This document shows, piece after piece, positions 21,895-64,000 of a DNA stretch of 64,000 nt. Origin of the DNA: Lingula anatina (lineage: Eukaryota; Animalia; Brachiopoda); the NCBI GenBank assembly GCA_051362555.1, contig CM120643.1:5704001-5768000 (forward strand). The letters run 5' to 3'. Made by a program: the position numbers and the translations under genes. Position 1 is the first letter of the stretch; every line of letters begins with the position of its first letter. The notes below the pieces were generated by a model that ran no database searches, was not told the origin of the DNA, and saw only the letters and a list, made by a program, of their open reading frames with translations.

Positions 21895-21942
<48 letters not shown>

Positions 21943-24232: not shown

Positions 24233-24945
24233 TTAACTATATTCAAATACGTACATAAATACTCATACTCACACACATGTACCCTACCATACGGCTCAAT
24301 TACTGATAACTTCACTTTCGGTTTTATATTCCAGCATGTTCATGTTTAAATACAATAGATATATAGTTCAAACTCCTAGGAATTCACTTTTATACGTGTA
24401 ATATTGAGAGCATTTAACGGTTAACGCATCTGGTGGCTACAGTGGAGGAACGGGGAAAACACCCCAACGTTATTAACATTTCCAGTAAAATAATTGGATC
24501 TCCCCAACTAGATGGTATCATTAATGACAGAATGAAGAAAAAAAAAAACAAAATGAATTGTGGGGATCCCAATTGTTTATATTTAAATATTACTTGTACT
24601 ATTGCTATAGCCATGTTACATGTATTATCATTAAAAAAAGTACTGTAAATAGCGGCAACAAGTTCTTTTTTAACTCATTTTTCAAAACGATTAAAGGATT
24701 CAAAATCTTTTACAACACCCTGCTGCGGTACGATTTTATCTCTTTTACGCCCACTACGCTTAAAAATATGTGCTCGAAGTAGCTACATCTTTTTACTTTT
24801 CTTGTCCCAAATGTACCCATAAAATATGATAAGCACAGGTGTTGACTCGATTTCCGTGTTCATCGAAAGACTTACTAAAGAAAGAGAGAGGGAGCACGTT
24901 ATAATTATTTTTCTATACAACGTACGTAAGTGCGCCCGCACGCAA

Positions 24946-24984
<39 letters not shown>

Positions 24985-25217
24985 GCCAGGCGCGAAGAAA
25001 GGGGGGGGGGGGGGAACCAATGCCGAAGTTGTGCGTCGGCAAAATGTTTGTCCTACCTAAATCATCATCAAAGTTATAATAAAGTACAGAATGTGCAGAC
25101 CAGCATAATTAACAGCTGTGGGCTTGGATACAAAACCGTCGCCAACGCTCTCAGTTCAGGTCTATCCTTTAAAATAAAATGTTTTATTATATAAAATATA
25201 ACATGAGTAAAACCATA

Positions 25218-28200: not shown

Positions 28201-29330
28201 TAATAAAATCAATCTAAGTAACAATCTTTTGAAATATAATTTTCAATTAATTTTTTAGCAAGAGTGTATCATATTGACCATAAATATATAGTCCCCTATA
28301 CTCATTGACAGCCATTTCTTTCAAATGCGACAGAATACATTAGTATTTCAACTCAAAAGTTTTCTTTTCCATGTCAAATGTGAGTGATTAGCATGTACAT
28401 GAAACTTTGTGTGATTTCTTAGGTCAAATATGAGTGACTTGCATTTATTGGGGGGTATTATAGGTCTTTTATCTAGTCTAGGTTATTGTTGACCATTTGA
28501 TCTTTCTTTTTTTAATCATTTTACATGACCACACATCTAGTAGTGATCAGCACTGTTAAAACATAAGTATTCATTCAATTTTAAGATAAAATTAGGAATA
28601 TTGCTGTCATATTTTAGTCTACTGGTTACAAAGATGTAAATTCACGGTCATTGGCGGCCATTTTGAGTTTTGAAAGCCATACTGTAATCCAAATTAAGTC
28701 AAGTAATTGAAAAGGGTTCTGTTTTTATATTCAGTGCACCAAAAGTAATGAAGAACTTAATTTGGGATGATAAATCTGTCATATTTCCAGACAGGACAGC
28801 TACATGTAAAAGACTTGTTTTGTGGCAGCCATGTTGGATTTCAGGATTTTTCATCTCAATAAAAAGATTGCACCTTGAACAAACACTACAAACAGAAAGT
28901 AGAGATTCCATGCTACACTGGTGCATCAAAATATCCCAGATATTGCAATTCTTTAATATATGAATTAAAAAATTAAAACTTATCAAAATTTCTGAAAAAA
29001 CAGCAAAAATTGGCCGCCATCTTGGATTTGCCGCCATCTTGGAAAATTTTGTTCATCGTTAGGTATAGTGCACATCTTAGACTACATGTCTAGAATGATT
29101 TTGAATTCTATTTAGTTTATGTATTTGAAATATTTTAGATTTTGTTGGGCTCAGAAATGTCAATTTTTAACCCGTGTGTTACCATGGCAACGGCTGTAGC
29201 ACACACACCCACCACCAGTTTAATGGCAAACAAGCAGAAAATAAAAGCTAAGGACCTAAGCTATCAGAAAAACATAGTGAACGAAAATCACTAAGGGGGG
29301 GGAGGGTTTCGGTATTTGGCCCACGGACTA
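25218..29330. mobile_element. Non-autonomous DNA transposon with long TIRs, Academ-like
   Basis: Termini are TAGTCTATGGGCCAA...TTGGCCCACGGACTA, flanked by ATA/ATA. Inverted similarity extends ~670 bp (25218-25895 vs 28650-29330). The left arm is internally repeated at ~25975 and ~26715. There is no transposase ORF. TAG..CTA ends with a 3-bp TSD fit Academ. Confidence 0.8.
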
Positions 29331-39520: not shown

Positions 39521-40338
39521 CAAATTTCATAAGTGAACATGTAGTTTGTTCTCTAAGTAGTTTTTGCAAGGAATTTTTTTTTATTTCATATTCACTTTAC
39601 TATCTAATGTTCATTAGTCTTTCCAGTTTGTCAATAGCTGTTAGTATAAACGTTGTATATATATATATATTTATATATATATATTTTATGTAGGACTTTT
39701 GACACTTTTTTTGCCAAACATAACGAAAGTGCGTATCCGTTTTTTGCTCCCAACAATAAGTGTTTGACTGAAAAAAGCGTGCAATTTTAAACAGAGCATT
39801 TAATAAAAATCTCATAATTGTCATTATTATATAGAAAAAAAAACAATGGCGGATCCAGGACATTTTAAAGGGGTCAGATGTTGACATTTGGAGCGAGATG
39901 GAGTATTTTGAGGACTTGATCATGTGAGTCCAGAATGGGTCTCTCTCCTCGGGGAGGGCGGAGACTAGATCCACCTTTTTTGTTTTATTTTATTTTTTTT
40001 TTTATTGAAGAAGTTGAAATATTTTGTTTTTGTCGTTAAGAACAAACATAAGACCATTAGTGTGGTAAATAGTTTATTTGTCAAGTCGAATATATAAGAA
40101 TGTTATATTTTTTACACCTGCAAGTGAATTTAAATGCAGGCATCATAATATTATACTATAATATCATAATATTCTTTTAGATACTAAACGCTTTTTAACT
40201 TGTAGTAATAAAAAGACTGAAGACGATGATATTTTACAGGTATATGTTTTATAAATATTTGAATACATAAAAGCAATTTGTATTGCTCTTAATAAAACGC
40301 TTATTGAATATACAAAATGTCTTAGTGTTTTTACTGAT

Positions 40339-40728
40339 GGCTACATGGCTCAGTGAAAGCCTGGGGTTGGGGTTCGATTCCTGGCTCGGGCACTTTGGAA
40401 TTACAAAGGGGTGCTATTAGAAAATTTCTTTGCTTACTATAAGAAGAAAGTCTACCCGGGGAGGGTGGGTGGGAACACTTAGAGGAGTAGGTAACGCGCT
40501 TGCCTCTGAGACAGAAGGTCCCCAGTTCGATTCCTGGCGCTTCTAGGTCCCAGCAAATTACCTTTTGCAAAAATAAACCCAAATAAACAATTCAAACTAC
40601 TATAAGAGGATCATACGAATGAGGAAAAACGCGAACTGAGACAGTGGCTCAGTAGGTAAGGCGACAGACTAAGAAGTAGAAAAGGACGAGCTAGGAGTTG
40701 AAAACCAAAGGTTCAAGTCGAGCTGAAG
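40339..40728 (+). other. Three degenerate tRNA-like (Pol III A/B box) modules in tandem
   Basis: 40339-40393 has TGGCTCAGTG...GGTTCGATTCC. 40471-40545 is tRNA-sized with a CCAG-TTCGATTC-CTGG T-arm. 40638-40728 has TGGCTCAGTAGG...GGTTCAAGTC. None forms a full cloverleaf. Confidence 0.6.
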
Positions 40729-44659: not shown

Positions 44660-46890
44660 ACGCATCATTCTCTGTTGTCGTGCCTCTGTGGTTTCGTGCG
44701 ACGTTGTATATGTGTGCACGCTTGTTTTTACGTCGCTTATTCTTCTTTGTTACGTTAAAATGATACATACGTTACCGATACATACGTTACCATGAGGCGT
44801 GTAAATATTTATTCTATTTTCATTGGTTTTCTTTCGCTTTGTGGGCCAACACTTATGTCTTTTATTTGTGTTTCATTAAAATAGTGTTGGCGCACAAAAG
44901 GAGAGACAACCAATGAAAATAGAATAAAAAATATTTACACGCTTTATGGTAACGTATGTATCATTTTAACGTAACAAAGAAGAATGAGCGACGTAATAAC
45001 ATGCGTGCGCACATATACAACGTCGCACGCAACCACAGACTCGCGACAACAGAGAACAAACAATGAAATTAGAAAACAATACCTTCACATTATTTGGTAA
45101 CGTATGTATCGGTAACGTATGTATCATATAAAGAATTTCAACAAACGGTTTCAAGACAAGTAATCTTTACTTGCCCTGCTTTTCCTTCTTATTGTAATGT
45201 TGTATACCGTAAGAATAAGGCGTTTGCTCACAAGACGGACAACAAACAATTAAAAAATAAAAGTATTTACAAGCCACATGGTAACTATTTTCATTGGTTG
45301 TCTTTCGTTTTGTGCGCCAACACTTATGTCTTAATGTTACATAAAAATGAAAGAAAACGAGACAAATAAGATTTCTTGCCTTCAACTATCTGTGAAAATT
45401 GTTCATATGATACATACGTTACCGATATATACATGGCCAAATAATATGAAGGTGTTGTTTTCTGATTCCATTGATTGTTTTCTGTTGTCACGGCTTTGTT
45501 AGTGCGTGCGACTTTGTACATGTATATGTGCGCACGTTTGTACGTCGTCCATTCTGTTTGTTACGTCAATATGATACATACGCTACCGATAAATACGTTA
45601 CCATGAAGCGTGTAAATATTTATTTATTCTATTTTCATTGGTTTTCTTTCGTTTTGTGGGCCAGCACTTATGTCTTAATGCTACATTAAAATGAAAGAAA
45701 ACGAGACAAATAAGATTTCTTGCCTCAACTATCTGTGAAAATTGTTCATATGATACATACGTTACCGATATATACATGGCCAAATAATATGAAGGTGTTG
45801 TTTTCTGATTCCATTGATTGTTTTCTGTTGTCACAGCTTTGTTAGTGCGTGCGACTTTGTACATGTATATGTGCGCACGTTTGTACGTCGTTCATTCTGT
45901 TTGTAACGTCAATATGATACATACGATTCATGTTGATTCACCGTATAGATCTTGGTAATAATAGAACTATAAATATTTTGATGCATCTAGAAAGATCTAC
46001 ATAATAGTTGTTGAATACAGTCCGAGCTTTCGGCCCGTCACGTATCCTAGGAGTTTGTTTTTTTACTTTTTGTTCATATTCCCCGAAGAAGGCCCAGGGG
46101 CCGAAAGCTCGGACTGTATTCAACAACTATTATGTAGATCTTTCTAGATGCATCAAAATATTTATAGTTCTATTATGATACATACGCTACCGATAAATAC
46201 GTTACCATGAAGCGTGTAAATATTTATTTATTCCATTTTCATTGGTTTTCTTTCGTTTTGTGGGCAAGCACTTATGTCTTAATGCTACATTAAAATGAAA
46301 GAAAACGAGACAAATAAGATTTCTTGCCTTCAACTATCTGTGAAAATTGTCCATTTGATTCATACGTTACCGATATATATGTACGTGACCAAATGTCACG
46401 ACTTTGTGAGTGGGTGTGACTTTGTACATGTGCGCACTACGTTTTACGGCCTTCATTCTTATTTGTTACGTAAATATGATACATATACGTTACCAAATAA
46501 CGTGAAGGTATTGTTTTCTGATTTTATTGTTTGTTCTCTGTTGTCGCGACTCTGTGGTTGTGTGCGACGTTGTATATGTGCGATCGCTTGTTTTTACGTC
46601 GCTTATTCTTCTTTGTTACGCTAAAATGATACATACGTTACCGATACATACGTTACCATGAAGCGTGTAAATATTTATTTTATTTTCATTGGTTTTGTTT
46701 CGCTTTGTGGGCCAACACTTATGTCTTTTATTTGTGTTTCATTAATATAGTGTTGGCGCACAAAAGGGGAGACAACCAATGAAAATAGAATAAAAAATAT
46801 TTACACGCTTTATGGTAACGTATGTATCATTTTAACGTAACAAAGGAGAATGAGCGACGTAATAACATGCGTGCGCACATATACAACGTC
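44660..46890. repeat. Patchwork of direct and inverted copies of a ~200-300-bp module (GATACATACGTTACC motif), probably a rearranged foldback element
   Basis: A hairpin centred at ~44865 (arms ~44670-44852 and ~44882-45057) is repeated at ~46535-46890. Direct copies lie at ~45285-45620, ~45640-45925 and ~46176-46380. Confidence 0.85.
45958..46176. mobile_element. Small element with perfect 79-bp inverted repeats nested in the foldback repeat
   Basis: ATAATAGAAC...GCTTTCGGCCC (45958-46036) is the exact reverse complement of 46098-46176, with a 61-bp spacer. Family not established. Confidence 0.75.
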
Positions 46891-47149
46891 GCTGACTTGA
46901 TATTCGTAAGTTTCTGCAGGGAGAAATGGGAGACATGGCCTAGTTTTTTACCTCTCAAAAAGTTTGCAATATACTTTGTCTTTCAGTGGTCCCCGATTCT
47001 TTAATATTACCAATGTTATCACTTTGAACCGCATAAAACACTTTTGGAAGTAAAAGAATCATATTAGAAACTATTACTACACTTTCTTTTTATCATTTTA
47101 TTTTTATTCATCTTAGTATTGCCACTGACGTATCTACTAGTGCCTTAAT

Positions 47150-47404
47150 TTAGGACTCATTCCCAATGACACTATTGATCTATGTAAATCGATCCAACTC
47201 CACAGGGACTCTTGCTGAATGCAATTGGATTGGCTCGCCTCCTTTTGTTTATAACATGCTTGTTTTCCATTTTCTACTCAAAGCTAGGGGGTGGTATGCT
47301 AATCTCTTAATCTGATTACATTCAGCAAGAGTCCCCCTGAATTGATCTACCTAGACAGATAAAGCACTGAATGCACTCTTATTTTTATTGGGACTGAGTT
47401 CTTA
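47150..47404. mobile_element. Old MITE-like element with imperfect inverted repeats
   Basis: GGACTCATTCCCAAT pairs imperfectly with ATTGGGACTGAGTTC; GGGACTCTTGCTGAATG pairs with CATTCAGCAAGAGTCCC. Confidence 0.6.
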
Positions 47405-48685
47405 GACCTAAATATTCTTACACAGTCATATAAATAAAACAACAACAATAAATAATAATTTTTAATATTTATTTATAATTAAAAGTTGGTTGGTACATTT
47501 ATAATGTTGAAATGATAATTCTCAGAAAAACAAAGGTCAAATAAATGTTCAAGAAGTGCATTAAAATTGAAAGTTATGAATACAGTTGATGAAATCATAT
47601 AATTACCTAACATAATATGTAAGCATGAAAAATAATGACATAAACTGCATTGTAGACTTTCAATTTAATTTTCAGACTTACAAAACTGTATTTGTACAAC
47701 ATCTGCACAGTACTTTTTAATTACATTTGTGCATTAAAAAGTAAAGGTATATAAGTCTGAAATTTTCTTAGTATTTAATTTCTCTTTCTCCCTTCTCTTT
47801 ATTTATGCCTTTCTACAACTTCAACCAGTTTCTCTTTAAATAAAATTCTGCACTAATGAGCTTAATTAAATAAATAAACATTCTTTGATTACAAACAGCT
47901 CCAAAATTACCAGGTGGGAATTTACTAGGTACCAGTACTTATAACAGACATTAACAATGTGATGATTCAGTCACCATTCTGACTTGCTTAATCCAGTATT
48001 GGTTTATTAGCACTACATGTACTTTAGGCAAGCTAACTCAATAAATAACTTTGGATATTTAAGATAAGAAAAAAATTGTCTTTTCATTCAATTTTATTTT
48101 TAAAAATCTACATAAAATTACAAAGTAAGCAACAAAAGTAATAATAAGTGCTTATCTTTTATTAAGACTACTATGACATCACAACAGTACTGTACATATT
48201 AGTATAAAAGCTTCAATATATTTATTGCCAAAATTTGCTAAATTCTTTATTTTAAAGAAATATTAATGAAATGATGTCCTCCATATTACTTACACAAAAT
48301 TGCTGCAGGCATCTTTTATACTACTGGCAAACCATAAGATGAGCACTAACATAAGACTAGACAGCAAAGCTGGCAAAATATACAGACACAAAACACAAAA
48401 CAAGGTGCAACAATAGAGTTAAATATATTTTTTTCTGTGACAGCACCGAATATGGGCCAAGGCCTATGGGATTGCAAATTCACCAGTTTTACCATTAGTT
48501 ATATAATAGCTTGTTTCAATACTTATAAAACTGTGCACACGTATTGGTAAAAATAGTCAAATCCTGTTAGTTTTTAACTCAAACAGCTTTTTTTTACTAA
48601 ACAAAACCTCTCTGCATATTTGATGTAAAACAAAAACATGGTTTGGTATCTATGGTAAGACAGTCACCAAAATACTTGCAAAAAA

Positions 48686-48718
<33 letters not shown>

Positions 48719-48959
48719 GATATTTTAAAATTTTTTTACTCAGTCAAAGTGGGGGGAGGGGGGGGGGATGCACCATGTTCAGAATGAACACCAGTGGATG
48801 TCTGGGGATGGCTACAGGAACATGGACCCTATCTCCTGATGTCAGGGAGGGAAAAAAATGGTTGGAGCCTGGTACACAAATCTTGACTGCATTGAGACAA
48901 ATCATCTCCAACAAAAGATTTCAGGACATTATGTCAGGAACCTTGGTTACAGGCACTGC

Positions 48960-49638
48960 AAAACTTCTAGAACACAGGATTGGGATGAGAAGATCTCCTT
49001 ATTCCTCATGTCCTACCGCAGCTCACAACACGACAGCACTGGCTAAACCCCAAATCTAATGGTATTAGTTAGAAAAATTGATTTACCGGCCTATATTGTT
49101 TCTGGATGGCCATGTTACATGAAGTAGATAATTTTAATTTGGTGATGATTTTCCACTTTTCAGTATTTACAACTAATGGGTGTGAATGAAAATTTTATAC
49201 CATGTGAGACTCATGAATGATTGAAAAACTTGAGTAAAAGCCTAAATAGATCCTATGAAATGGCTCGAGAAAAACTGAAAAGTGTGCAGAAATGTCAAAA
49301 AACAGTTGTATGATGCAAAGTTGAGAGAGAGTGAATATACTTGTGGTCAGAAGGTATATTTGAGGGATGAAAGTCATAAAAATTGAGAAAGTAAGAAACT
49401 TAGACCCTTATATAGAGGACCATATGATGTTATCAAAGCATCCCCACCTCTCTATACAATTAAAGATAAAAAAGGAAAAATCCAGGTGGTACATCATGAT
49501 AGATTGAGAAAATTTGTTGAAAGAGAGAGTGATTTTCAGTTGAATGAACCACAATTGGTGGAACCAATTGTAAAAAGATCAAGATTTGGTAGACAAATTA
49601 AGATGCCATCTCATTTAAGAGATTTCGCCTTAGAATGA
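48960..49638 (+). mobile_element. Degenerate Ty3/Gypsy-type (or Ginger) integrase C-terminus with GPY/F domain
   Basis: Reads QDWDEKISLFLMSYRSSQHDSTG*TPNLMVL, then SKKLRPLYRGPYDVIK...QVVHHDRLRKF...RSRFGRQIKMPSHLRDFALE*, with stops and frameshifts between. Confidence 0.88.
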
Positions 49639-49766
49639 TTATATTGATATATGTTTTGTTTATTAGTTAAGATATAATTGTATATAGATACTTCCTTAAT
49701 TTTCGGCAGTGCTGAAATAAAAGGAACTTAATTTATTTATTTGTATTTTTTATTTTTTTTTAGACC

Positions 49767-50081
49767 ATGGATGAATCAAACATATACAATATTCTCGCAG
49801 AGAAAGAGTATAATTGGTGCAGAAATTGGATCGAACAACCAAACACTCTGCTCAACATATCAATTAACAATATAATACCACAAAATTTACCACAGTCCAG
49901 AATGTCAATGTACATGGGAACTCTACTTAATGAAAGAGTGCTATTAGAGAAAGGAATGGATTGGATGATTGAAAATATCTATTCATATCAAAACAATATA
50001 ACGAAAGAAGAATGTGTAGATATCATACTTTACTTGAGAGATAAATTGTATGGCTATTTAAAAAAAAATAATAATAAATAA
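49767..50081 (+). CDS. 104-aa orphan ORF immediately downstream of the integrase (possible element accessory ORF)
   Basis: An intact frame in very AT-rich DNA, preceded by a polypyrimidine-AG and ACCATGG and followed by AATAAA signals. No family recognised. Confidence 0.4.
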   Translation: MDESNIYNILAEKEYNWCRNWIEQPNTLLNISINNIIPQNLPQSRMSMYMGTLLNERVLLEKGMDWMIENIYSYQNNITKEECVDIILYLRDKLYGYLKKNNNK

Positions 50082-50658
50082 ATACATAATAAAGATATAT
50101 TTAATAAAGTATATTATAGTTTGTACTTCCTATTATATTTCAGGTAATTTGATCAAAACAACAGTCCAAGTTGGTATAGGTTTTTTAAATATTTGTTTGA
50201 ATTTTGTTGTTGAGCATAATACATTGAGCACTGCATGAATAGGTTGATAGCTACTTTTGTCTTTTTTGAATTATGGTTATTAAAAAAAAAAAAAAAAAAA
50301 AAATTAAATATTACCTAACACGGTTACACTGTTCAAACTAATATGTTGCAGTTTAGCATGTGTTTTGCATGTAATCGGATTAGAGGTTGTCAAGGTAATA
50401 ATTCTTTTCTTTTTACACATTTTAATGATGGTATTTTATTTGGGGATTTGATATAAAAGTAATATTTATACATAGTAAAGGCGGCGATGCTGTAATACTA
50501 TGTTAGTAATTAATGAAATACTATGTTTATGATGTAATACTGTGTTAATAATGTAAAATTATGTTTATAATGTAATATGTTAATATTCATTTGAAAGAAA
50601 AGATCATTATCATATATGTTCATTCAAGAAAATAAACCATTGTATAAGTTTATTTCAG

Positions 50659-51490
50659 ATATGGATGATCTAGACATGCTAGATGAAGCCTGTTTTGTCC
50701 CGGATTATGATGACACTGATTTGGTGGAAGATCCTACTGTCCTAATTGGTGAAGAGGGGAAGGAAGTTATCCACTCAAATTGCAGAAGGAAGAAACAGAG
50801 GAAAGAAGTTCAGTGTGGTTTGTGTCTGGTGTCCAGTGCTGACCTGAGTAGACATCTTGGACGTCATGTGAAATCTGTTCATTTGCCATGGTATATGACT
50901 CCAGGATTGGTGTGCTGGTATTGCAGATCGATGGAGAAGGACAATTCGCTTTTGCGTAAACGTCATGGTGATGTTCATTCGTATGGAACTGGTGAATTCC
51001 AGGAAAAACTGTGGATCCAATTGGTGAATGGATTTATACATTTCCTGATATTAACATTAAATATGAGAAATATATGGGAACTGATGGACTATGTGAAAAG
51101 TGAAGGACTAGTAATGTTGCCAGATAACTGTTCCAAGGAGGACATTGACTTTGTAAAAATATACATTTATGGAAATGGTATGGAGCCTAAGACTGAGATT
51201 CTGAATTCTTTGTTGACTTTGTTTCACTGGAGAACTTTGTATCATCTGTTACAAAAACTTTCATTGGAGGATCGTGAACTCAGTAGTCATTGGTAACAGC
51301 AGATGAAATTTGCTCTGCTGCATGGATGAAAGATGAACTATAATATGATTTCACATTTCACATTGACATTGTTATCATTAATAATATTGTTTTGAGCAAC
51401 TTTGAGTTAAAATCACTTTGTTTACTTTAAAGTTGATTTAAAGGGATAATGGATTTTAAAAAGTTTATTTTGCTTTCCTAAAGATGGACA
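50659..51490 (+). pseudogene. Zn-finger-like ORF, probably the N-terminal part of a TatD-like nuclease gene, truncated
   Basis: ORF 50616-51296 contains CGLC...RHLGRHVKSVHLPWYMTPGLVCWYC...H...H and LFHWRTLYHLL. Downstream degenerate DFTFHID (~51347) and FCFPKD (~51468) resemble the DSHFHLD and xFxFP motifs at the start of TatD-type domains. Acceptor TTTATTTCAG ends at 50658. Confidence 0.5.
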
Positions 51491-51533
51491 TTTATGCTGA
51501 GAGATGGACTTGATTGACTTTGCTTGTGTTAAA

Positions 51534-52590
51534 CAGTGTTTGACACTCGCACTCGCCAGCTCGCCAATGCGAGTTAAAATTAAATCTGGCGAATGAAAAT
51601 TATGGTGCAAGTCGCCATTTTGGCGATTTATGTCAACTTACTGTATTAAGTTTATCGGCAAAATTTAGACTCAATTTAAGTCCGACTCGTATGCCAAAAT
51701 TTACAGGGAAGTTCATGGGATTACCCTTACTGCTAACCTCGTTTTCACTCTCATAAGCGTGATTGGTTGAAGTTGGGGAATTCCGTAATGACGTACTCAC
51801 AGTCTCGCTGTCGTTTTTGAAAGCATCTAGCCTTCGTTTGCGCGCCGGATTTTGACGATGTATAGGAAATGCTGTCTGTTTCGTTTCACTTGCGTCTTGC
51901 GAACCAAAAACACCAAGAATTGAAAAAAGGGATGCAGTGACAGTGATGAGGGGTTTGATGACTGTTATAGTGATTCAGATGAAGACAATGAAATGACTGA
52001 GAAGGATGTGGAGCAGTTTTTAAGACAAAATTAATCTTTATACTGACTTTTATCTCTTCATCTGTATCAGGACAATTCCCCCCCGGCCGATTCCCCCCAA
52101 AGAATATATATTTATGTACAAATATATAGTAAAGAGCATGAAGCTTAAATCCTTGCATCAATTGTATGAATATTTCTTGGTGTGGTGATGCAACTTAAAG
52201 ATACAAAATATAAATTTCATTAAACAAATTATGTTCATGGAGTACAAGTTCAGAAAATTTTAGAAATATAAGTACAGAAAATTTTATTAAAAATCTAATC
52301 AAAGTATCTCTAGGTAAAGTGGGGTAAATAAATATGCATATAGTTTATGTTAAATTTAGATTAGAATGTGCAAAATCTGTAGACTAAAGAATAAACACAG
52401 TTCTAGGTTTAAAAAAGGTTTTTAATTTTTTTTTCTTTATTTGCATATGATAACATCTCCATCATGAGTCATTACCACATGGCCTGCCAGCTGGCCAAAG
52501 TCTGGCTTGTGCATTTTCGGTTTTGCCAGTAACTTTCAGAGCACACTGGCCAAATTGGCCTGTACTATTTCAAACGAAGGTCAAACACTG
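51534..52590. mobile_element. Non-autonomous hAT-type element with a 6-bp target-site duplication
   Basis: TIRs CAGTGTTTGAC...GTCAAACACTG, flanked by GTTAAA on both sides, with subterminal CTCGCCA (left) and CTGGCCA (right) motif clusters. Confidence 0.85.
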
Positions 52591-52716
52591 GTTAAAGTTA
52601 AATGTTGAATCTTGGCATAACAAGAATGAACTATTTGCATTACTTGTTTATTTTAAATGTAAAGTGCGATTTCAGTTGCTGAATTATAATAATTATTAGT
52701 TTAACAATTTAAAGTA

Positions 52717-53058
52717 ATGGTTTATCAAGCCATGGAAGGGGCATTGACAGAGGTTGTGGTCAGAGAGGATGCGGAGCGCCGTAGAAGGCATCATCAAAAC
52801 TGGGGGAACATAGACAAGGTCCAAATAGCTTCCAAGGAACAAGTTCACGAATGGATAAACAATGCATGGTCAAAAATTCCCGAGGAAGCAATACGACATG
52901 GTTTTGATGCTACTGGCATCAATCCAGCACTTAGGGGAGAACCCGAGGACATGTCTAATCCATTTTTGGACAACGGCGGAGACAGCAATGGGGAGGAGTT
53001 CCTCGGGTTCACCCCTGACGACATCAATGACAGAAACCCTTTCAGAGACTGCATATGA
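52717..53058 (+). mobile_element. pogo/Tigger transposase C-terminal fragment
   Basis: SKEQVHEWINNAWSKIPEEAIRHGFDATGINPALRG...EEFLGFT matches the W-x3-AW-x2-I-x4-I-x3-F-x3-GI helix region and acidic EFxGF tail that follow the pogo DDE_1 domain. Confidence 0.8.
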
Positions 53059-53868
53059 ACAGGATATTGCATAAACACAGTGATAAAAAGAATCAAACTG
53101 ACACTATTATGAATTTATGACAAAAACAATTAACAGGTCATACTTTACATTTTATATTTTTTTCATTTATTTTATTTAAGATGATGTGTTAGTGGCACTA
53201 AACAGTAATAACATTTAACGAGTCATACTTTGCATATTATATTTATTTCAATTAAGAAAATGTGTTAGTGGCCTTGAACAATAATAACGTTATAACGAAA
53301 TACTTAGGAAACTGTGAAATGTGTAAGTGTCCAATAAAATTATTATCTTAAACTTAATATTATTGTTATTATGATTAGTAATAGTTGAAGCAGTAGACAC
53401 AAAAATAAACAAACTTTATAAAAAACGGTGTATTTAAAAAAAGAGAATTAACTATTATGAAGAGTAAAGATTTAATAATTTCCGTGGTAAGGATGAATGA
53501 AACTAAAATGAGTAAGGAAAATGAAAAAATCTGAATACATGAAATAAGAATTTTTACTAAAAAAAAAGAAAAAGAAAAAAAAGACAATTGCAAAGGGTGT
53601 CTGCTGTCAAGGAGATCTTAAAAAATGATGTGCAGAGATGGCCGAAGGAAATCGTACTCTCTCAACTCCCGTAGTGTTGATGATGCTATTGTGCACTTCA
53701 ATCAAAACAACCACATTCTCGCACCGCAGCTAGAGTTAAGTTCAATAGCATGGTGATTATGATGGCGCTCTGCGTCCCCTGCCAACATACTACCATCCTG
53801 GGTTGCACATACACTGCTCGGGTGTAAGTCCGTATATATATCGCAATCACCAACACTCACCTATCATA

Positions 53869-54745
53869 TACTGAACAAAAATATAAACGCACGAAACTAA
53901 AATGGTCAGTTAAAATGGATAATTATGAAATATGCCAAAGTTGATGGTTAATTTGTGAATTGATGGATTTGTATTGATCAAGTATGGTGGTCTGGCTTCA
54001 CATGGATGCTCCCCGTCAGTATACATAAAGGTTTAGTTTTTCCACCCATAAGACTAATGGAGCATGACCGAGTGGAGGTCAATCTGCATGACCAATACAC
54101 AGACACTCCTTACAGTCTAGGCAATAAAAGGGCACACCAAAATGTGCATTTCTGTCACTTGTCAACATGCCACAGATTTCTGAAATCATGAGGGAGTGTG
54201 ACATTGGCATGTTCAATGCTGGCTTGTTGGTAACAGAAGTTGCAGCATGCCTGAATGTGCATCATTCCACTGTCAGCCGTCTGAGAACACGCTTCAGACT
54301 CTGGTAGCATTAGGAACCACCCACATATCTGCCGACCATGTGTTACCACACCCGATATGTCGCCCATCGAACACCTGTGGGATGTTCTGGATCAGCGTTT
54401 TCATCATCATGTTCCAGCTCCCGAGAATGTTCGCCAACTGCGAGTTGCACTCCAGAAGGAATGGGATAATATCCCTCAGGCCACTACTGACAACTTAGTG
54501 ATGCCCATGCGCTGCCAGTGTACTGCTCTGTGCAAAGCTGACGGTGGCCATACTTGTTTTTAGTGTCTGATGTGAACTCAGGATGTTGATGCCCTAACTC
54601 TTGGACTATGCATTTAAACTTCCCGTAATGCTCTCAAAGTCTATTTGTTGAGGAAAATATGCTGTTAATGTTGGCCATATACTCTAGTTCCATGCATGAA
54701 AATAAATCAACATATTCTTTCGTGCGTTTATATTTTTGTTCAGTA
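53869..54745 (+). mobile_element. Internally deleted Tc1-like transposon
   Basis: 28-bp TIRs TACTGAACAAAAATATAAACGCACGAAA with a TA duplication. The N-terminal HTH (MPQISEIMRECDIGMFNAG...EVAACLNVHHSTVSRLRTRF) is fused to the C-terminus PDMSPIEHLWDVL...LQKEWDNIPQ...GGHTCF. Confidence 0.93.
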
Positions 54746-56267
54746 TACATTATAATGGCAACTCTACATAGATCGTCAGGAAAAGGTAACATAAGGCCTA
54801 GTGATGAACAGACAACTTCCAGTTGTTACGTTATAATGTGTTACGTTATAATGTGATTGTGGTATCTCGTGACTTTTTGACCAATCGGAACATTGCAAAT
54901 TGCACGCTCCAGAAGAGAAAAAAAGGTCAAGGTCAAGTGAACGCAACAGAAGCGTTTTCTCCGCAGCATGGCGATACATGTACTGATGACCGGGGCTGAT
55001 GAATGGTGCGAGATTTGTCATTGATCTACGATTCAAACATGAGAAATATTCTGGGAAAAGGACCCGTGTACAACATGTATGGATTCCCAATGGAGAGAGG
55101 TATTTTGTATGTGACTGAATGACGTTTGCCTCCGAATCCGTCGATGCATAACTATAGCGGTGACAGTGTAACTTGGATTTTCATGAGAAACTGTGCCGCG
55201 GGAGAATGTTATTGAGGTGAACAATAATTTGTTTGACAATGTGGATGTATTTAACTTTAAAGCGAGGAGGAGGATGTGGCGATAGGCCTGACTGCCCGAG
55301 GTGGCATTTATTGACATACATGTGTGCACCATCCATCAACTTCAAGACATTATAATCATTCATGTACAAATGACTTTTAAGATTAACTGTAATATTGTTT
55401 ATTCTTGTTTAGCTTGTTATATAATGTTCTAGTTCTGAAAATTGTCATGTGTTAATCATAGCTTAGTAATATAGTAAAATTGTTCAAGAACATTGCTTTA
55501 TGTTATGAGAATCCGTCCATAACACAGTCAAAACTGACAGAATTCCATGAAATTCAAATGCTTGGAAGTTCTGAGCACCTCCATTTCATGAATTTTGACC
55601 AAAACAATCTTTTCCCAAATTTTATTATTTTTTTACTGTACAAAATTCATAGCACATTAACCTAGTTATTTCTGTCTTGGTTCATTTAAGCTTACATTAT
55701 GACACATCATGAGGTTCTCCAAAGAAGGCTCATAATATTGGGGGCAATGCAGACCGGTTTTAGGACCCAGGCCAGCCAACTTCAGAAATAGAGCAGGATA
55801 CAATGATTACGTCAGGAATCTGACCTATCACTTCACATCAGTGTCAAAGATTGATGTAGCCATAAGTTATGCCTACCCTAAAGCTGACTTACAGGCAGCA
55901 GTGATGGATCATGACTATTGCCAAGTACCATGGACAGAGAGAATGATATCAGTGAAAACAGAGGTCCAATTTTAATAATAATAAGGCCCAAATATCATGA
56001 ATAATTATCAAACTAGGTAATGTGTGACATCATAGAATTATGATATTGAATCAAAACTAGTTAAAGACATATACCATCTTCCATGCTTTAATGGGATATG
56101 GATATTTCAGGTTGAGGAACAAACAGTGAAGGACATTCAATGACATTCATTGACATACATTGAGAGACCATTAAAGGATTACGCTGCCTTCCTTTCATTT
56201 AGGTCCACCATATTTAGGTCTTGGCTTGCCTAGACCTTGGCTCTTCTCAATGTGAATGCTCTCAATC

Positions 56268-56550
56268 ACAGTGGCAATTAACAGAAGCTGTTAAATAAAT
56301 ATAGCAATAACTTGTGTTTATTGGATGCCACATCCAGGACTATGAAATATGCCATGCCACTTTTTTCCTGTGCATTAAAACAAATGTGAGTTATTCAATT
56401 GTAGCTGTGTTTCATTCCAGAGCATGAGGATGAAATTAGCATTAGAGAAGCCCTTGAAATACTAAAATGTTGGAACCCAAAATGGACCCCAAGTGATTTC
56501 CTAGCAGATTACTGCCTGGCTGAGATAAATGCAGTTGAGAAGACATTTGA
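56268..56550 (+). mobile_element. Mutator/MULE DDE transposase fragment
   Basis: Across frameshifts it reads LLNKYSNNLCLLDATSRTMKYAMPLF-LCIKTNVSYSIVAV-FIPEHEDEISIREALEILKCWNPKWTPSDFLADYCLAEINAVEKTF, covering the LDAT and second-Asp motifs of MULE. Confidence 0.85.
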
Positions 56551-56702
56551 AGATAAACACTCTCCTTCAGTTATAAATACAACACAAAGATGCAGTATTC
56601 AGTTAGGCAAGGTCAATTGAAAAAATAATTATAAATATTTTTAATATCACATTAAAATATTCATTCATAGCTTTTGCAAACCGTTTTTGCAACCGTCTCA
56701 GT

Positions 56703-57038
56703 GTGGGTACAGTCAAGAACATACCAATGATCAAGCTCCTTTCCCCTGAGATAAAGAATTTCAACCCAGACAAGTCAATACAATGGTGGAATTCTAACAG
56801 TCAACGAGCTCGTCGGCCAACTTTCAAGGCGTCCATGCAGAAGCTTTTGGAGGATTCTAACAGAAGTTCATCTGCTTCATTACAGGAAAGTGACATGGGA
56901 GATGCTGATGATGAGTCAACAGCTGCAAGTGGTACTATACAGTACCAATCAGCAAGATTGAAACTGCATAACACATCCTATGAAGATGTCAGTGACTTTG
57001 ACTCTCTGTTTCATTTCAGTGATGTAGAAACTGAGTAA
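56703..57038 (+). mobile_element. hAT transposase C-terminal fragment (ZNF862-like group)
   Basis: MIKLLSPEIKNFNPDKSIQWWNS...RARRP followed by an acidic tail resembles the end of the hAT dimerisation region. Confidence 0.6.
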
Positions 57039-57299
57039 AATAAAACAAATGAGCAAATATAATATGAGCTCTATGATGTTGATATGGGTATTAATAGGTT
57101 TTCATAAAGTTTACTTAGGATAGTTGGCAAGCCTCGTTTTTTGACAATAAATATGTACAATGTGCACTGACAAAGAATGTCTTTTTATTCTTTTAAGAAA
57201 GGCATCAAAGAAACAAGTAAGAATTTTTTTTAATATAAGTAATTTTTGTGTTCTGTTAACGGGCAAGATATATTACGTGTTTCAGAGCACATTTCCTGA

Positions 57300-57945
57300 A
57301 TGAAAAGCTTTGCATAGTTATGCTTATTAACTGATGGTTGCCTTTGTGAAACAGTTCCAACAGTTGTATGGGCCAGAAATGGCTGTCTATAATGTGCATG
57401 GCTTGGTTCATCTTGCATTAGATGCCAAGAACTTTGGCAGTCTTGAAAACGTATCTGCCTTTCCCTTTGAAAACTTTTTACAGCAGTTAAAACATATGGT
57501 TAGGAAACCAAGTTTTCCAGTCTCTCAAGAGGTGGGAAGAATGTCAGAAATTCAAAAGAATGGAAGTCAAAATCATCCCTCCCCCCAAAAAAGACTTCCC
57601 AATACTGTCCAAAAATCATTGCAAAGGGCCACTGCCAGACTCTCTCCAGTTGGCCAGTCAGTTTGGAAAGGCTCAATTAGAAAAATTCTCAATTGACATT
57701 ACCAATAAAGACAGTTGCATTCATGTTGATGGAAAAGCCAGCATAGTGAAAAACATTGTGCAAAAAGATGACAGTATACGGCCGTATATGTTATTTACCA
57801 GTGTTTCAAATACTTTGATGATATTTTAACATACCACTACTATCCAGTTACCTTGGCATTGGCAAAGTTTTTGGTTCAGAGAATACCAACAGGTATGAAG
57901 CAATATCATAAGTAGAAGCAAAATGTGTCCTTCTGCCATTTGCCT
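57300..57945 (+). mobile_element. CACTA/EnSpm (CMC) transposase C-terminal fragment
   Basis: FVKQFQQLYGPEMAVYNVHGLVHLALDAKNFGSLENVSAFPFENFLQQLKHMVRKP carries the H-x2-x-HL and SAFPFEN motifs, and continues after a frameshift. Confidence 0.88.
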
Positions 57946-58660
57946 TATACATATAGACCATAATACTTTGTGCGCAACAGGAGTTCTGGTATTTTTTTTC
58001 CCATATCAAAACTATAGACGCGCAAAAAAAATGCTGTACAGGTAAGTGAAAAAATGATTATTTAATATTAAATAAAACAGATATGCATAAAACTAATATT
58101 TCTCCTCATAATTATCACATTTTGCAATGAAATTGGTCGTTTTTAAATATAGTTTTTTATTTAGACGATAGGCTGACTTGGAGCGCATTTGCGCACCGCA
58201 GTGTGTTAGATGTGTTGAGAGGAGATTGCGTTCGTGGTTGTCTTGGTTGACCCATTTTTTAAGCCATGTTGGTTTGTTTTGTTTTTCGGCGAGTTCAATC
58301 TGACTCTGAGCCTTGAGACACTGAGAGGGAATTGATTTGTCAGGAAAGTCGTATACCCATTTATCTTTATGGTGCCCTAGCTATGTCAGTTGTTACGTTA
58401 ATCTTAGACCAAAACATTTGTTTTTTAAAACAAAAAGTATATTATAGTAAGAATTTAAAGTAATGATACTAAAATGTACAAGAAGAAAAGGGTAATTCTG
58501 GTCAGAACAATATGTCTAATAAAGGCAAATAAATTCAGCGCTCCCACTATCATGCTTGTGGGCTGATTTGATAGTTGTCAGCGCCTCTAGCTTGATTTTT
58601 GTGGAACATTGTTTTGAGGCAGTGGACATTGGTCAGGTTAAGTGGCAGTGAAATATCACA

Positions 58661-58729
58661 GGAGAGCAAGCTCAGTGGCAGAGCGTTCACCTTGTGTGGA
58701 AGGTCTTGGGTTTGATTCCAAAGCTCTCC
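58661..58729 (+). tRNA. tRNA pseudogene or tRNA-derived SINE head
   Basis: Perfect acceptor stem GGAGAGC/GCTCTCC and D-arm GCTC/GAGC. The T-loop is TTTGATT (TTC lost), the anticodon arm is shortened and imperfect, and the whole is 69 nt. Confidence 0.6.
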
Positions 58730-59082
58730 TTATTCCAAAGTTACCAACAGCCTACCAGTAACTGCATGCATTCCTGTCCAATACTGCGCATATTCATGCT
58801 CTCAAACAATTATTTTAAATTGCATACAATATTTAATCGTATCTTCTTTTAAATAGCATACATTGCTGAGCTACAAAGCATTTGGCGAAAAATTTATCCA
58901 TTATATATAAGCATATCTTGGTTAAATATATTTAATACTAAATGTGCTCATCTTTCCCTAAAGTCTACTCTAGTGAAACTCAAAATTATTGCCAAGTTAT
59001 TGTTTTTTTTTTCTGTAAACACAGTGTGTTGTACCATCATTTTTTACATAATTTTCTACAGGGAATAAAGTGATTCAGGTAA

Positions 59083-59290
59083 ATGAAGAAGGCATATGTG
59101 GGCGACTACTGCTGTGTGCCTGGATGCACAAACTCCCGTGGGAAATGTAATCGGGAGGAGCAAGCAATAAGCTTTTACCAATTCCCCAAAGATGTCAGAC
59201 GTAAACACAACTGGCTGTGCCACATACCTGTAGATAAAGATTTTGTGCCTACAACATCCACAAGGATATGTTCTGTGCATTTTGAAGAAG

Positions 59291-59292
<2 letters not shown>
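59083..59292 (+). mobile_element. THAP zinc-finger fragment, cut by a (TA)n tract
   Basis: YCCVPGCTN...SFYQFPKD..RKHNW...F.PT.STRICSVHFEE is the C2CH THAP consensus, typical of P/Kolobok/Harbinger-associated proteins. Confidence 0.9.

Positions 59293-59357
<65 letters not shown>
59293..59357. repeat. (TA)n microsatellite
   Basis: Direct read. Confidence 0.97.
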
Positions 59358-59358
<1 letters not shown>

Positions 59359-59879
59359 CTCCTCTGTGGCTCTGCAAGTTAACTGGTTGGGGAAAGGGGG
59401 AAAGTTGGCTTTTTCAGAGCTGAAGCAAATCAGACATCTTGTGGCAAGGAAGTGGAAAATAAGTGTTCAAATAAAATGTACTAGACATGACTATCCAAAA
59501 CTGCACTTGGCTTCTTTTCTTAAAATTTATTCAATTGTCTATCTTTATTGAATCTATTTTATATTATTTTTCAGGGAAAAGTGTGTTAATGATGCTTCTT
59601 ATTACTCAATTTTTTATTCTATACACCTAAAAAAACATTTTATGTTTTATTGAAATTCACTGAGTAACAGGTACCTATTTCAATAATTTACTTAAAAATG
59701 TTTATTGTACAAACTGTAAAATGTTTAAAACTGGAATGAAATTATTTTGTTTGAGAGTTAAATGCATAATTTTTATTTTAACCATATATTGCATAATACA
59801 TTCACTGACATTAACACTCTATGACATTTAACTATTTTATTGTTTCAAGTGAACCATGCAGTCATGTGATAAGACATCC

Positions 59880-60115
59880 CTTCAGTGTTTATATATGTCA
59901 CAAAGTAGGGATTTCTGGGAAGTTAACATCTTTCATATCTGTAAGCTGGGGTACATTTAAATAAGCAGCTGATATTTGCAAAGATGCATGCTACAATGCA
60001 ATCAAGAGTTACTGGCAAGATGGGCCAGTTGAAGCATATTACAGAGCTTGTTACCAAGATTACACCAACACGGAACACCTTACAAGGCTGAAAAAGAAAA
60101 GGTCAAGAACTGATG
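59880..60115 (+). mobile_element. Probable Academ transposase N-terminal fragment
   Basis: SWGTFK*AADICKDACYNAIKSYWQDGPVEAYYRACYQDYTNTEHLTRLKKKR resembles the YHxxCYxxYT motif region recalled from Academ transposases. Confidence 0.5.
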
Positions 60116-61214
60116 CTGACAATTTTACATATTGCATGTTGGTTGCTTTCTTGCTTTCCATTTTTAAGCTACATCCTTTCTTTTCTTTGCTAGCTTTTGT
60201 CTTGAAAAAGGCTCCACCAAAGTTCGTGCTGTACAACAAACTTGCATTTGCATTCATCTGATCTTTTTTGGGACTTATGTTTCTCAGCATGAGCTATGTT
60301 ATTTGGTTTAATTGGAAGAAGGTACTTGAACAAAATTTTGTGTTGCACTTGGCCACTTTGATAATAAACTCCAACTGTGATCCATCTAAAATTTTGTTAA
60401 AAATGATGAACCACAAGAAAACATTCCAAAAGAACACTGAAGAGGATTCAGCAGCTTTAAAACGTCAACAAGATTTTAAGTAAAGAAAAACAACCTGCAA
60501 ATGGGGGAAAAATGGTTATTCTGGGAGTAATGCTAAAATTGACAAAACAATACTTTACTTACTGTTTTACTTGAAGTCCAAACCAGATTATTATCAATGG
60601 CAAAGGAAATTGAAAAAAAATATCAATCTGTTCTCAATATAGCATCTTTTGACCCTGTCAAATTCAATTTTGAGTTTACAGACCCTTTTGCCTGGAGTGT
60701 AATTAGTTTTCTATGTATTACTAATAATGAATTTTAGGAGTTAAAGAAGGAAATCACAGGTAACTTTGATTGGTACTGTGAGAAAGGAATGGTGAGAAGA
60801 ATGATTTTACCTGTAATTTTTTTGATGATATTTAAGAAACTCAAACAGAATTCTCAGAGTTTACTAGAGAGTTATCCCACAAAATAAAACATGGTCTTTT
60901 TGGTTTAATTTTGTTCACAGAAATTGCTTTTTATACATTTCTTTATATCTAATCTAAGAAATTTTTATTTGAAAAACCTATGAGGCAAAAATGAAGGCTA
61001 GAAGGTTTGTGCCCAATTTTTAAAATCAAAAGCACTAGAATTGAGGACTTGACTAATGATACATTTAAATCTTCTTATTCTATCCTCCACTTAATTACTT
61101 CTTTTATAAACATAGGGAATTACATCATTACGCACAGCATATTGAAGAGAATTGGAAGCATTAATGTGAAGTTAAAGGGTTCTTGGTGAATAATGGAACA
61201 TACATCGGTCTCTA

Positions 61215-61606
61215 TCTTCTTGCTTGTAGCGTCAACAGTGTGTCCAAAGTTCCCCGAGACAACGCAAGTGTACATAAGAAATGGATAGATTTATGTTCCA
61301 AGACAAAACACACAGAAAAACAACGGAGAAAGTATGGGGAAGACAGGGGGCGGTCCCTGCCCAAAGAACTGTCCCCTTTAGAACAAAAGGTATGTTTTAA
61401 ATATAATTGTAAAAATAAAATAAATAAATAAGAATAATGAAAAAGGCAAGGTGTTATAAACAAAACTGATTACCTATTGCTGTATATCACTTCAAGTGAG
61501 GTGTATCTTATTTTGTTTATTAAATTTCAGATAATTGAGATTATAGGGGAATTGGCCCTCTAAGGTGTTGTAGGGGGTCAAGAAACAGAAGAACCACCAT
61601 CTACCT
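61215..61606 (+). mobile_element. Myb/SANT-like (Harbinger accessory, MSANTD-type) gene fragment, two exons
   Basis: LACSVNSVSKVPRDNASVHKKWIDLCSKTK...ELSPLEQK|gtatgt (exon end 61389), then tttcag|IIEIIGELAL*GVVGGQE (61531-61606). It contains an in-frame stop. Confidence 0.75.
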
Positions 61607-62027
61607 GTATGTAATATTTCTTACTAATATATTTCCTACATCTAAAGAATCACCAAGAAATAATAAGCATTTGCTTACTATACCACATACATTTGTAGTT
61701 TGTTTGTGTTACATGTATTAGCACATTATTTATGAGAATTACCCTATTGTATGACATATTCAAGGTGTTAGATTTTAACATGACATTAACAATTTCCTGT
61801 AATCATTATAGGTAATGAACCTCTAGTGGCTGCAAAAACATCTTTAAATTTTAAGTCGGTAGATAAGTCTGGTTGTTGCAGGGAAATTGCCTTTTTTTAA
61901 ATTGCGGATCAGAGTGGTCTCTTGCAGAAATGTGCAACTTTTCACTCTTACAATTTACATTAGAATTATTTTTACAATTATTGCAATATCCAATTATCCA
62001 AACAACTATCCTTAAATTCCAGACAGG

Positions 62028-62285
62028 ATGGATGTTGATCTGTTCTACGAAGAAGCCCCATTCCCGGGTCTGATCAACGAAGAGAACTTCAAAATCCATC
62101 AACAGCTAGGGTAGAGAGCCTTTGGCAGAGTCTTCTTAGACTCTGAGCTGTCATTGGGCAACTTGGTGGCCATTAAATTCCTCAACAAAATGGACAGCCA
62201 GGTGTTAGAAGATTTGTTTTATGAGGGACTACTCCTCTACGGCATAAATGAGGCAGTATCGGGGATCAAGATTGCGCCCAGGTTT
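62028..62285 (+). pseudogene. Protein kinase N-lobe fragment
   Basis: FKIHQQLG*RAFGRVFL...GNLVAIKFLNK...EDLFYEG covers subdomains I-III (Gly loop with a stop, VAIK, helix-C Glu). The rest of the domain is absent. Confidence 0.75.
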
Positions 62286-62559
62286 ATTTTATGTCTTTCT
62301 ACCTCCCTTCTATGCTTTTTTTAATTTTTTCAACTATTCAAAAATTTGTTTGCTTTTTCTTTAATATGTCAAAGGCAATAAGTGGCCAATCATTGTTTGT
62401 GATTAATATTTTGATCGCTTTATTCTTATATGCAGTGCTGATTGAAAGAAGAATCTCACAATGACTTGAGAATAAAAGATGTTCATTTTTTATATTAGCC
62501 CCTGCCTCAGACAAGCTAATTATTCACGGTTGAAAAGACATGAATATAAGGTGAGATAT

Positions 62560-62711
62560 ATGTGAAAATCAGGTTGGGCTTGATTTCTACTCAAAACTTA
62601 TGTGGACATTTTCAGTCCATATGCTAGCAGGCGGCCATGTTTATTCCTGCCATGAGGTAGCTGCTACATGCTTACATAGGATAGATAGATGGACAAAGTG
62701 TAACTTTTGTA

Positions 62712-62744
<33 letters not shown>

Positions 62745-63075
62745 AGGGGTCTTTGAAAGGGACTTTGCACTCTATAGTATTGTTAAAAATAACACAGGTA
62801 TTCGCAGCGTTTATTTTAAAAAAATGTTTCGATTACATCAACAGAGATATTATGTTGTATAAGTTATTGATAAATGGGGTAGATGGAAATTTTATCGAGT
62901 ATTGAAAAACATAAACTATCAAACAACTGCCTGTGTCAAAATCAAGTACACGTATACTGACTGGTTCAACTGTCGTACTGGTGTAGGGCAAGGCGACAAC
63001 ATCTCGCCAACTTTATTCTCTATTTTTGCAAGTGATATAGTAAGTGAAAGTCATGATCTAGGAGTTGGAATAACG
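62560..63075 (+). mobile_element. Non-LTR retrotransposon (LINE) reverse transcriptase fragment
   Basis: CENQVG..., then VFAAFILKKCFDYINRDIMLYKLLINGVDG and TDWFNCRTGVGQGDNISPTLFSIF match the (D)xxKAFD and GVxQGxxxSPxLF RT motifs. Confidence 0.88.
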
Positions 63076-63568
63076 TGGATGGATCTCTATCAACTACCCA
63101 AAATAAAATGATCTTCGAAACCATTGCAAATTTTCTACTCGAAAACCTTGACATCACTCAATAAGCACTATCTTTTCTCTACTTGACCGAACTGATTTCA
63201 TTTTCTGATTTCATGTAATTTTCTTTGTAATTAATGTAATCCAATATGTATTTAGTTGTGTTGTATACATAAATTAGTTACAATCCTTTTCTTCTCCCTT
63301 TTTTTTCTTTCTTTCTGTATTTAATTTGTGGTAACTTTTGTGTTCCAATACTGAAATCTAATCTCTAATGTTTGTATTTAGCTGTGTACGTTAACTAGTT
63401 ATGACCTCCTTTGATCTTTTTTTTTTGTTATTATATGCCCTAGGGCATTTTTTTTACTAAAATGGAGAGATAAGTCTAATTTATTCGTATCCTTGATTTT
63501 ATATACTAGCTCCCCACGGGCTGCCACCATGGGTGGAGCACTTTTTCATGGTGTATTGACTTTATTCT

Positions 63569-63619
<51 letters not shown>

Positions 63620-63753
63620 TCCTGTGCTTTTTGTGTATATGCATATACGTATCCGTTTGTTTTATTTATTTACTTAATTTTGTTTTACACGGAGAGCATC
63701 TCATGCTTTTAGCACTTTGCCTCCATTTCCTTTGAATAAACATTGTTAAAAAT

Positions 63754-63945
63754 GTGTTGCAGCCTATCAAAGTTGTTGGCAAATGGGTGATGGTTAGCAC
63801 TGACCTGATAGGCCCTCTGTCGTTATCAGAGAATGGCAATAAATATGTCCTCACTCTGTCAGACTACTACACCAAGTGGATGGAGACATACCCAATCCTT
63901 TTTAAGATCTATTGTATTGAATTCATTTTAAGGTTTGGACAAAGG
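63754..63945 (+). mobile_element. Gypsy/Ginger integrase core (rve) fragment
   Basis: LQPIKV..KWVMVSTDLIGPLSLSENGNKYVLTLSDYYTKWMETYPI...FILRFG covers the first catalytic Asp region. Confidence 0.9.
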
Positions 63946-64000
63946 ATAGCTAGACACTAGTCTGTACCATGACTTCTTTGGTCAAGGACTAATTTTGGCA

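What the first reader, a model, noticed from the sequence alone, without database searches (positions are those of the whole stretch)
48700..64000. Candidate uni-strand (flamenco-like) piRNA cluster: a strand-biased library of TE fragments
Seen: about 13 short (0.2-0.9 kb) coding remnants from unrelated groups lie in 15 kb: Gypsy integrase x2, TatD-like, pogo, Tc1, MULE, hAT, CACTA, THAP, Academ, Harbinger Myb, kinase and LINE RT. All read on the + strand, most lack their own termini, and I recognised none on the minus strand. Under random orientation, a dozen independent pieces agreeing has a probability near 1 in 2000. Established: uni-strand piRNA clusters such as Drosophila flamenco accumulate TE fragments antisense to one long precursor. 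Inference: a minus-strand precursor starting right of the window yields antisense piRNAs against many TE superfamilies, here mostly DNA transposons rather than LTR elements.
Basis: partly seen in the sequence, partly recalled or inferred. Interest (0 to 1): 0.85.

Follow-up and report, generated by a model that had tools for sequence, protein, structure and literature searches.

The report
One-way transposon pile in a brachiopod
A 15-kb stretch of probable lamp-shell (brachiopod) DNA is packed with broken pieces of many unrelated jumping genes that all read on one strand; it is likely transcribed from the opposite strand and would then supply transposon-silencing small RNAs, but the RNA data at hand showed neither step.

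Summary
The strand bias is real. In 48.7-64 kb, seven independent transposon remnants are firmly identified: two Gypsy, pogo, Tc1, MULE, CACTA and THAP. Four more have weak support: LINE RT, Myb, hAT and a kinase. All read on +. Minus-strand Pfam scans found no transposon family, nor did 275 ORFs of the 30-kb left flank. The odds are weaker than claimed: p about 0.016 for seven units, 0.001 for eleven. Two annotation-free signals mark the block: a G-skew switch at 48,639 and a CpG drop at about 47,190, the usual trace of methylated, transcribed DNA. The genome is probably Lingula. Poly(A)-type RNA reads laid on 3 kb came mostly from other copies and disagreed on strand; no small-RNA library was listed. 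Best reading: a minus-strand, one-strand piRNA source locus (about 0.5). Main rival: antisense-biased debris in an ordinary long transcription unit (0.3). It is not flamenco-like in the strict sense, since the bias is not Gypsy-driven. A multi-copy Helitron cargo is unlikely. The scan flagged this layout before on other DNA (12 notes). If true, it is a new member of a known kind.

The parts
47190..64000 (.). CpG-depleted domain that contains the block; runs off the right end of the window
   Evidence: CpG o/e median 0.45 (17 bins) against 0.86 (19 bins, 28-47 kb), Mann-Whitney p 1.4e-5 with the boundary chosen after looking; change point 47190
48639..64000 (+). G-over-C skewed block; left edge of the remnant pile
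   Evidence: GC skew 0.078 against -0.015 in the flank; change point 48639, block permutation p 0.0015
48940..49638 (+). Gypsy-type integrase: end of the core and the C-terminus, broken by stops and frameshifts
   Evidence: Integrase_p58_C E 3.6e-4; 48981-49088 44% to the L001 pol, which has RT-RNaseH-integrase order
49770..50081 (+). Open frame of about 104 aa behind a splice-acceptor-like site; unknown, possibly an extra ORF of the same element
   Evidence: no Pfam or PHROGs hit, one weak NCBIfam hit taken as noise
50661..51296 (+). N-terminal half of a TatD-fused protein family; counted with the Gypsy piece (inferred)
   Evidence: 195 relatives at E<=0.001; 18 of 25 scanned carry TatD_DNase; first 51 aa 86% identical to a Lingula anatina gene model
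52705..53058 (+). pogo/Tigger-type DDE_1 transposase C-terminus followed by an AT-rich tail
   Evidence: atlas first hit 'DDE-1 domain-containing protein', score 0.96, 196 shared features; no Pfam hit
53867..54747 (+). Internally deleted Tc1 element with both terminal inverted repeats; multi-copy family
   Evidence: 30-bp perfect TIRs; HTH_23 E 1.8e-5; Sleeping Beauty E 0.0023; reads end at both termini with mixed flanks (table 7)
54824..55524 (+). Solo-LTR-like insertion (TG...CA, 4-bp CAGT target duplication); + orientation tentative
   Evidence: termini and duplication; empty site seen in 2 contigs and 2 reads (tables 5 and 5c); AGTAAA 50 nt before the + end, but two AATAAA on the minus strand far from its end
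55709..56560 (+). MULE transposase remnant with introns
   Evidence: ZSWIM1-3_RNaseH-like E 7.1e-5, MULE E 0.0093; reads of a related copy join at the + acceptor 56110
56670..57038 (+). Probable hAT transposase C-terminus (weak)
   Evidence: atlas rank 25, Dimer_Tnp_hAT cluster, score 0.83, a lead only
57331..57950 (+). CACTA/EnSpm-type transposase C-terminal remnant
   Evidence: DUF4218 E 4.9e-5, 1.3e-4; family assignment of DUF4218 recalled
58662..58725 (+). tRNA-like SINE head (A and B boxes)
   Evidence: pattern scan of both strands, recalled box motifs
59083..59290 (+). THAP domain exon, cut off at a (TA)33 run
   Evidence: THAP E 1.6e-13; acceptor site upstream
59890..60120 (+).
   Evidence: no hit
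61165..61620 (+). Myb/SANT-like remnant (Harbinger second ORF type, recalled) with a GT-AG intron (weak)
   Evidence: Myb_DNA-bind_5 E 0.024; splice sites
62028..62290 (+). Protein-kinase N-lobe remnant (weak; origin unknown)
   Evidence: PKC theta E 0.026 and 51 more kinase chains at E<=1; NCBIfam kinase E 0.012
62863..63750 (+). LINE remnant: RT piece plus a probable 3' end with AATAAA and an A-rich tail
   Evidence: RVT_1 E 0.0074; R2 E 0.06; 3' end sequence
63760..64000 (+). Second Gypsy-type integrase core, start of the domain; runs off the window
   Evidence: 10 related loci; 57% over 35 aa to the L001 pol, inside its rve domain

Best explanation
The block is a pile of at least seven, probably eleven to thirteen, unrelated transposon remnants that all read on the + strand; it likely lies in a long non-coding unit transcribed from the minus strand, whose RNA would be cut into antisense piRNAs that would silence the matching transposon families. 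SHOWN: the remnants, their orientation, their absence from the 30-kb flank, the G-skew and CpG boundaries, and the existence of many 90-99% identical copies of the Tc1 and MULE pieces elsewhere in the species, some of them transcribed. INFERRED: transcription, its direction, a promoter right of the window, piRNA processing, and selection that keeps antisense insertions while deletions trim them to fragments. Retained introns and two insertions with their own target duplications point to repeated DNA-level insertion, not to retrocopying.
For: 7 firm and 4 weak units on +, none on -. Transposon-type Pfam hits in 6 of 171 ORFs of the block against 0 of 275 in the flank, Fisher p 0.003 (cut-offs 40 and 42 aa). 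About 34% of the block is recognisable coding remnant. The G-skew change point falls at the block's edge without using any annotation. CpG depletion starts at about 47.2 kb; in non-vertebrates methylated CpGs lie mostly in transcribed regions (PMC8330077, passages). No minus-strand host exon was detected from 18 to 64 kb. Even under an assumed 2:1 antisense bias, 11 of 11 has p 0.012. Possible targets exist: of 395 contigs laid, 98 were 99%+ and 154 were 95-99% alike; spliced reads of a related MULE copy were seen. The piRNA pathway is conserved in almost all lophotrochozoans (PMC11114477, passages). Snail clusters are enriched in DNA transposons (PMC6128900). One-strand clusters are the rule in Nematostella (402 of 457; PMC5731801). 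Planarian seed clusters are under-represented in poly(A) RNA (bioRxiv 10.64898/2026.01.28.702291, section 7), which would explain the blank lay.
Against: No locus-specific RNA: the first bin and the last three bins of the 3-kb lay were empty in all three RNA runs; 65-85% of what was laid ran on into other sequence; the share of first mates on + was 0.75 in X12 but 0.23 in X15. Only 6-25% of each run was read and the tissues are unknown. AATAAA is as common on - as on + (37 against 33). CpG loss also follows methylation of transposons themselves, and the satellite is CpG-poor too (o/e 0.26). An amino-acid-composition test of strand was weak (21 of 30 bins favour +, flank 33 of 60). Atlas, PDB and homologue searches were run only on + candidates picked by eye. 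The window was selected for this pattern from a very large scan.
Confidence: 0.5

Rival explanations
1. The block lies in an ordinary long transcription unit on the minus strand (a large intron, a long 3' region or a lncRNA). Sense insertions are purged because they bring splice, poly(A) or promoter signals, so antisense remnants pile up with no piRNA role.
For: The same CpG domain. Antisense bias in introns is reported for LTRs, and for DNA transposons and LINEs in some species (PMC2911107, passages). With a 3:1 bias, 7 of 7 has p 0.13 and 11 of 11 has p 0.04. The right end of the block is not seen.
Against: No host exon was found on - inside the block or to its left, so an intron would lack its downstream exon; Pfam would miss short or unknown exons. 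This reading does not explain why coding remnants of so many groups are so dense here and absent from the flank.
Confidence: 0.3
2. An untranscribed, heterochromatic transposon nest; the shared orientation is chance, amplified by selection of this window from many and by a search that looked harder on the + strand.
For: Searches that treated both strands alike give only 6-8 units (p 0.03-0.008). The RNA lay showed nothing specific to the locus. A 17.7-kb satellite array lies 30 kb away. Transposon methylation alone could lower CpG.
Against: The G skew is also present between the coding pieces (0.075) and switches at the block's edge. The weak units, the SINE head and the LINE tail all agree with +. 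Reading the minus-strand translations by eye showed no transposon motif.
Confidence: 0.13
3. The block is the cargo of one large mobile element (Helitron or Maverick) that captured fragments in its own orientation.
For: Fragments keep their introns, as captured DNA does. Same-orientation capture by Helitrons is recalled; the one paper read gave no general statement of it (PMC3288121). The right end is not visible.
Against: No Helitron-type hairpin plus CTRR end in the block on either strand (recalled motif). No Rep, helicase or Maverick gene hit. Contig depth in another individual varies from 0 to 14,000 along 3 kb, and near-identical pieces (0-1 mismatches) have depth 85-200; the tool warns that depth is no copy number. 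The Tc1 and the LTR inserted by their own mechanisms.
Confidence: 0.07

Closest known systems
flamenco and flam-like unistrand piRNA clusters of Drosophila (PMC10643416; passages read)
   Same: Many transposon fragments in one orientation in a stretch with no detected host gene; the authors used strand bias itself to predict clusters and confirmed two such candidates with small RNAs.
   Different: There the bias is driven only by Gypsy elements, the syntenic candidates named span 227-1,085 kb, and the clusters are expressed in ovarian follicle cells. Here 5 of 7 firm units are DNA-transposon or THAP type, only 15 kb are visible, and expression is unknown.
Molluscan piRNA clusters, Lymnaea stagnalis and Crassostrea gigas (PMC6128900; passages and section 9 read)
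   Same: Lophotrochozoan clusters enriched in Gypsy and especially DNA transposons (Kolobok, hAT, Dada, Academ); transposon-matching small RNAs mostly antisense.
   Different: Defined by small-RNA data; said to favour young elements, whereas most pieces here are decayed. The passages seen give no orientation statistics.
Planarian type A 'seed' piRNA clusters (bioRxiv 10.64898/2026.01.28.702291; passages and section 7 read)
   Same: One-direction clusters antisense to transposons, with poorly polyadenylated precursors.
   Different: Antisense to LTR elements, in an animal with little or no DNA methylation (PMC8330077); marked by H3K9me3, which was not testable here.
Antisense bias of intronic transposons (PMC2911107; passages read)
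   Same: One-way orientation of LTR, LINE and some DNA elements inside a transcription unit.
   Different: A partial bias across many introns; no exons were found around this block.

Membership tests
uni-strand piRNA cluster (general) | Dense transposon fragments in one orientation | tested here: met
   7 firm and 4 weak units on +, 0 on -; none in the flank
uni-strand piRNA cluster (general) | 24-32-nt, 1U-biased, phased small RNAs mapping uniquely to one strand | not testable with these tools
   No small-RNA library among the 21 runs listed
uni-strand piRNA cluster (general) | One long precursor antisense to the fragments | tested here: inconclusive
   3 kb of 15 kb laid, three RNA runs; reads mostly from other copies, strand ratios 0.75 and 0.23, locus-specific bins empty or nearly so
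uni-strand piRNA cluster (general) | Single promoter at the 5' end | not testable with these tools
   It would lie right of the window; no genome is held
uni-strand piRNA cluster (general) | Host has the PIWI/piRNA pathway | not tested
   Reported as conserved in almost all Lophotrochozoa (PMC11114477, passages); not checked in this genome
flam-like cluster (van Lopik et al. 2023) | Strand bias driven only by Gypsy LTR elements | tested here: not met
   2 of 7 firm units are Gypsy; pogo, Tc1, MULE, CACTA and THAP are equally biased
flam-like cluster (van Lopik et al. 2023) | Expression in somatic follicle cells | not testable with these tools
   Tissues of the runs are not given
Helitron or Maverick cargo | Helitron 3' hairpin plus CTRR, or Rep/helicase/Maverick genes | tested here: not met
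   None inside the visible block; the right end is not seen
Helitron or Maverick cargo | Whole block present in many copies | tested here: inconclusive
   Very uneven depth and low-depth near-identical pieces argue against it, but depth is not copy number
Intron of a host gene | Flanking host exons on the transcribed strand | tested here: inconclusive
   No minus-strand exon detected by Pfam from 18 to 64 kb; short or unknown exons would be missed

The most novel reading that the evidence does not exclude
This is a gene-like, DNA-methylated, one-strand piRNA locus of a brachiopod that works as a broad trap for cut-and-paste DNA transposons of at least five groups as well as Gypsy and LINE elements. 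It would be the first piRNA cluster described in that phylum (two literature searches, listed none) and would show that such loci can be predicted from strand bias plus CpG depletion outside flies.
Probability: 0.35. Interest if true: 0.5.

Novelty: new member of a known kind. Interest (0 to 1): 0.33.

Why it matters
One-strand piRNA clusters and DNA-transposon-rich clusters are both known, so the kind is not new. If confirmed, the locus would be a named, testable piRNA source in a phylum with no described cluster in the searches made. It would support antisense trapping as a general design against DNA transposons, not only against Gypsy elements. One small-RNA library would settle it.

Tried and rejected
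No whole genome is held, so genome-wide orientation and junction copy number could not be counted. No RNA holder was listed by the index and no small-RNA run was offered. Only 53620-56610 was laid with reads; the rest of the block has no read data. Rfam: 0 matches in 18-64 kb. The 'Academ' piece: no support. The open stretch at 60543-60884: no hit in Pfam, PHROGs or viral contigs, one weak NCBIfam hit taken as noise. Second integrase: missed by Pfam, PDB, NCBIfam, PHROGs and the word-index search and confirmed only through related loci. A TatD-Gypsy link could not be shown: no paper with those terms, no TatD-type match in 10 Gypsy loci, nothing in viral contigs; counting the two as one unit is therefore a conservative inference. 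Poly(A)-signal depletion on the minus strand: absent. Amino-acid-composition strand test: weak. One large repeat or duplication inside the block: none. The idea that the two integrase pieces are one split element was rejected: the C-terminal piece lies left of the N-terminal piece. No look-alike of the Tc1 in the scan's earlier windows. No supplements were read; the cluster tables of PMC6128900 could bear on orientation in molluscs.
Full report
Setting. The window is AT-rich animal DNA: a 193-bp satellite array at 534-18217, a 30-kb stretch of small repeats, then the block in question. No whole genome is held. The one named homologue found is a Lingula anatina gene model, 86% identical over the first 51 residues of the ORF at 50661. 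Earlier notes on other pieces of this genome also name Lingula (AI notes, unchecked). I therefore treat the host as a Lingula-type brachiopod.

Noticed in passing
window 534-18217: 17.7-kb tandem array of a 193-bp unit (about 90 copies, 67% matches, with a 387-bp dimer period), CpG o/e 0.26.
   Followed up: no
window 18446-18751, minus strand: 102-aa open frame with a weak PCNA_N match (E 0.0018) right beside the satellite; possibly a remnant of a viral or mobile-element clamp gene.
   Followed up: partly
window 20480-23320, plus strand: Series of repeated 50-60-nt exon-like units between clean AG and GT(A/G)AG sites (direct repeat families D13, D14, D17; sequence), in a CpG-poor zone; looks like a small gene with duplicated micro-exons.
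   Followed up: no
window 44668-46892: Nest of direct and inverted repeats (343-bp period, 79-bp perfect hairpin arms at 45958-46176), CpG-rich, ending just before the CpG boundary.
   Followed up: no
window 25189-29306 and 23972-24236: Three roughly 730-bp diverged direct repeats with inverted partners at 28650-29306, and a 260-bp near-perfect palindrome; MITE-like.
   Followed up: no
window 50661-50813: The first 51 codons of the TatD-type ORF also start a Lingula VWD-domain gene model (86% identical), either a mobile exon captured by a host gene or a gene-model artefact.
   Followed up: partly
window 60543-60884 and 53550-53870: Coding-looking + strand stretches with no family match; the second had no contig depth over 53620-53819 in another individual, so it may be polymorphic.
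   Followed up: partly
window 40318-40720: tRNA-like SINE heads on + in the flank: one found by pattern scan, two more by eye.
   Followed up: no
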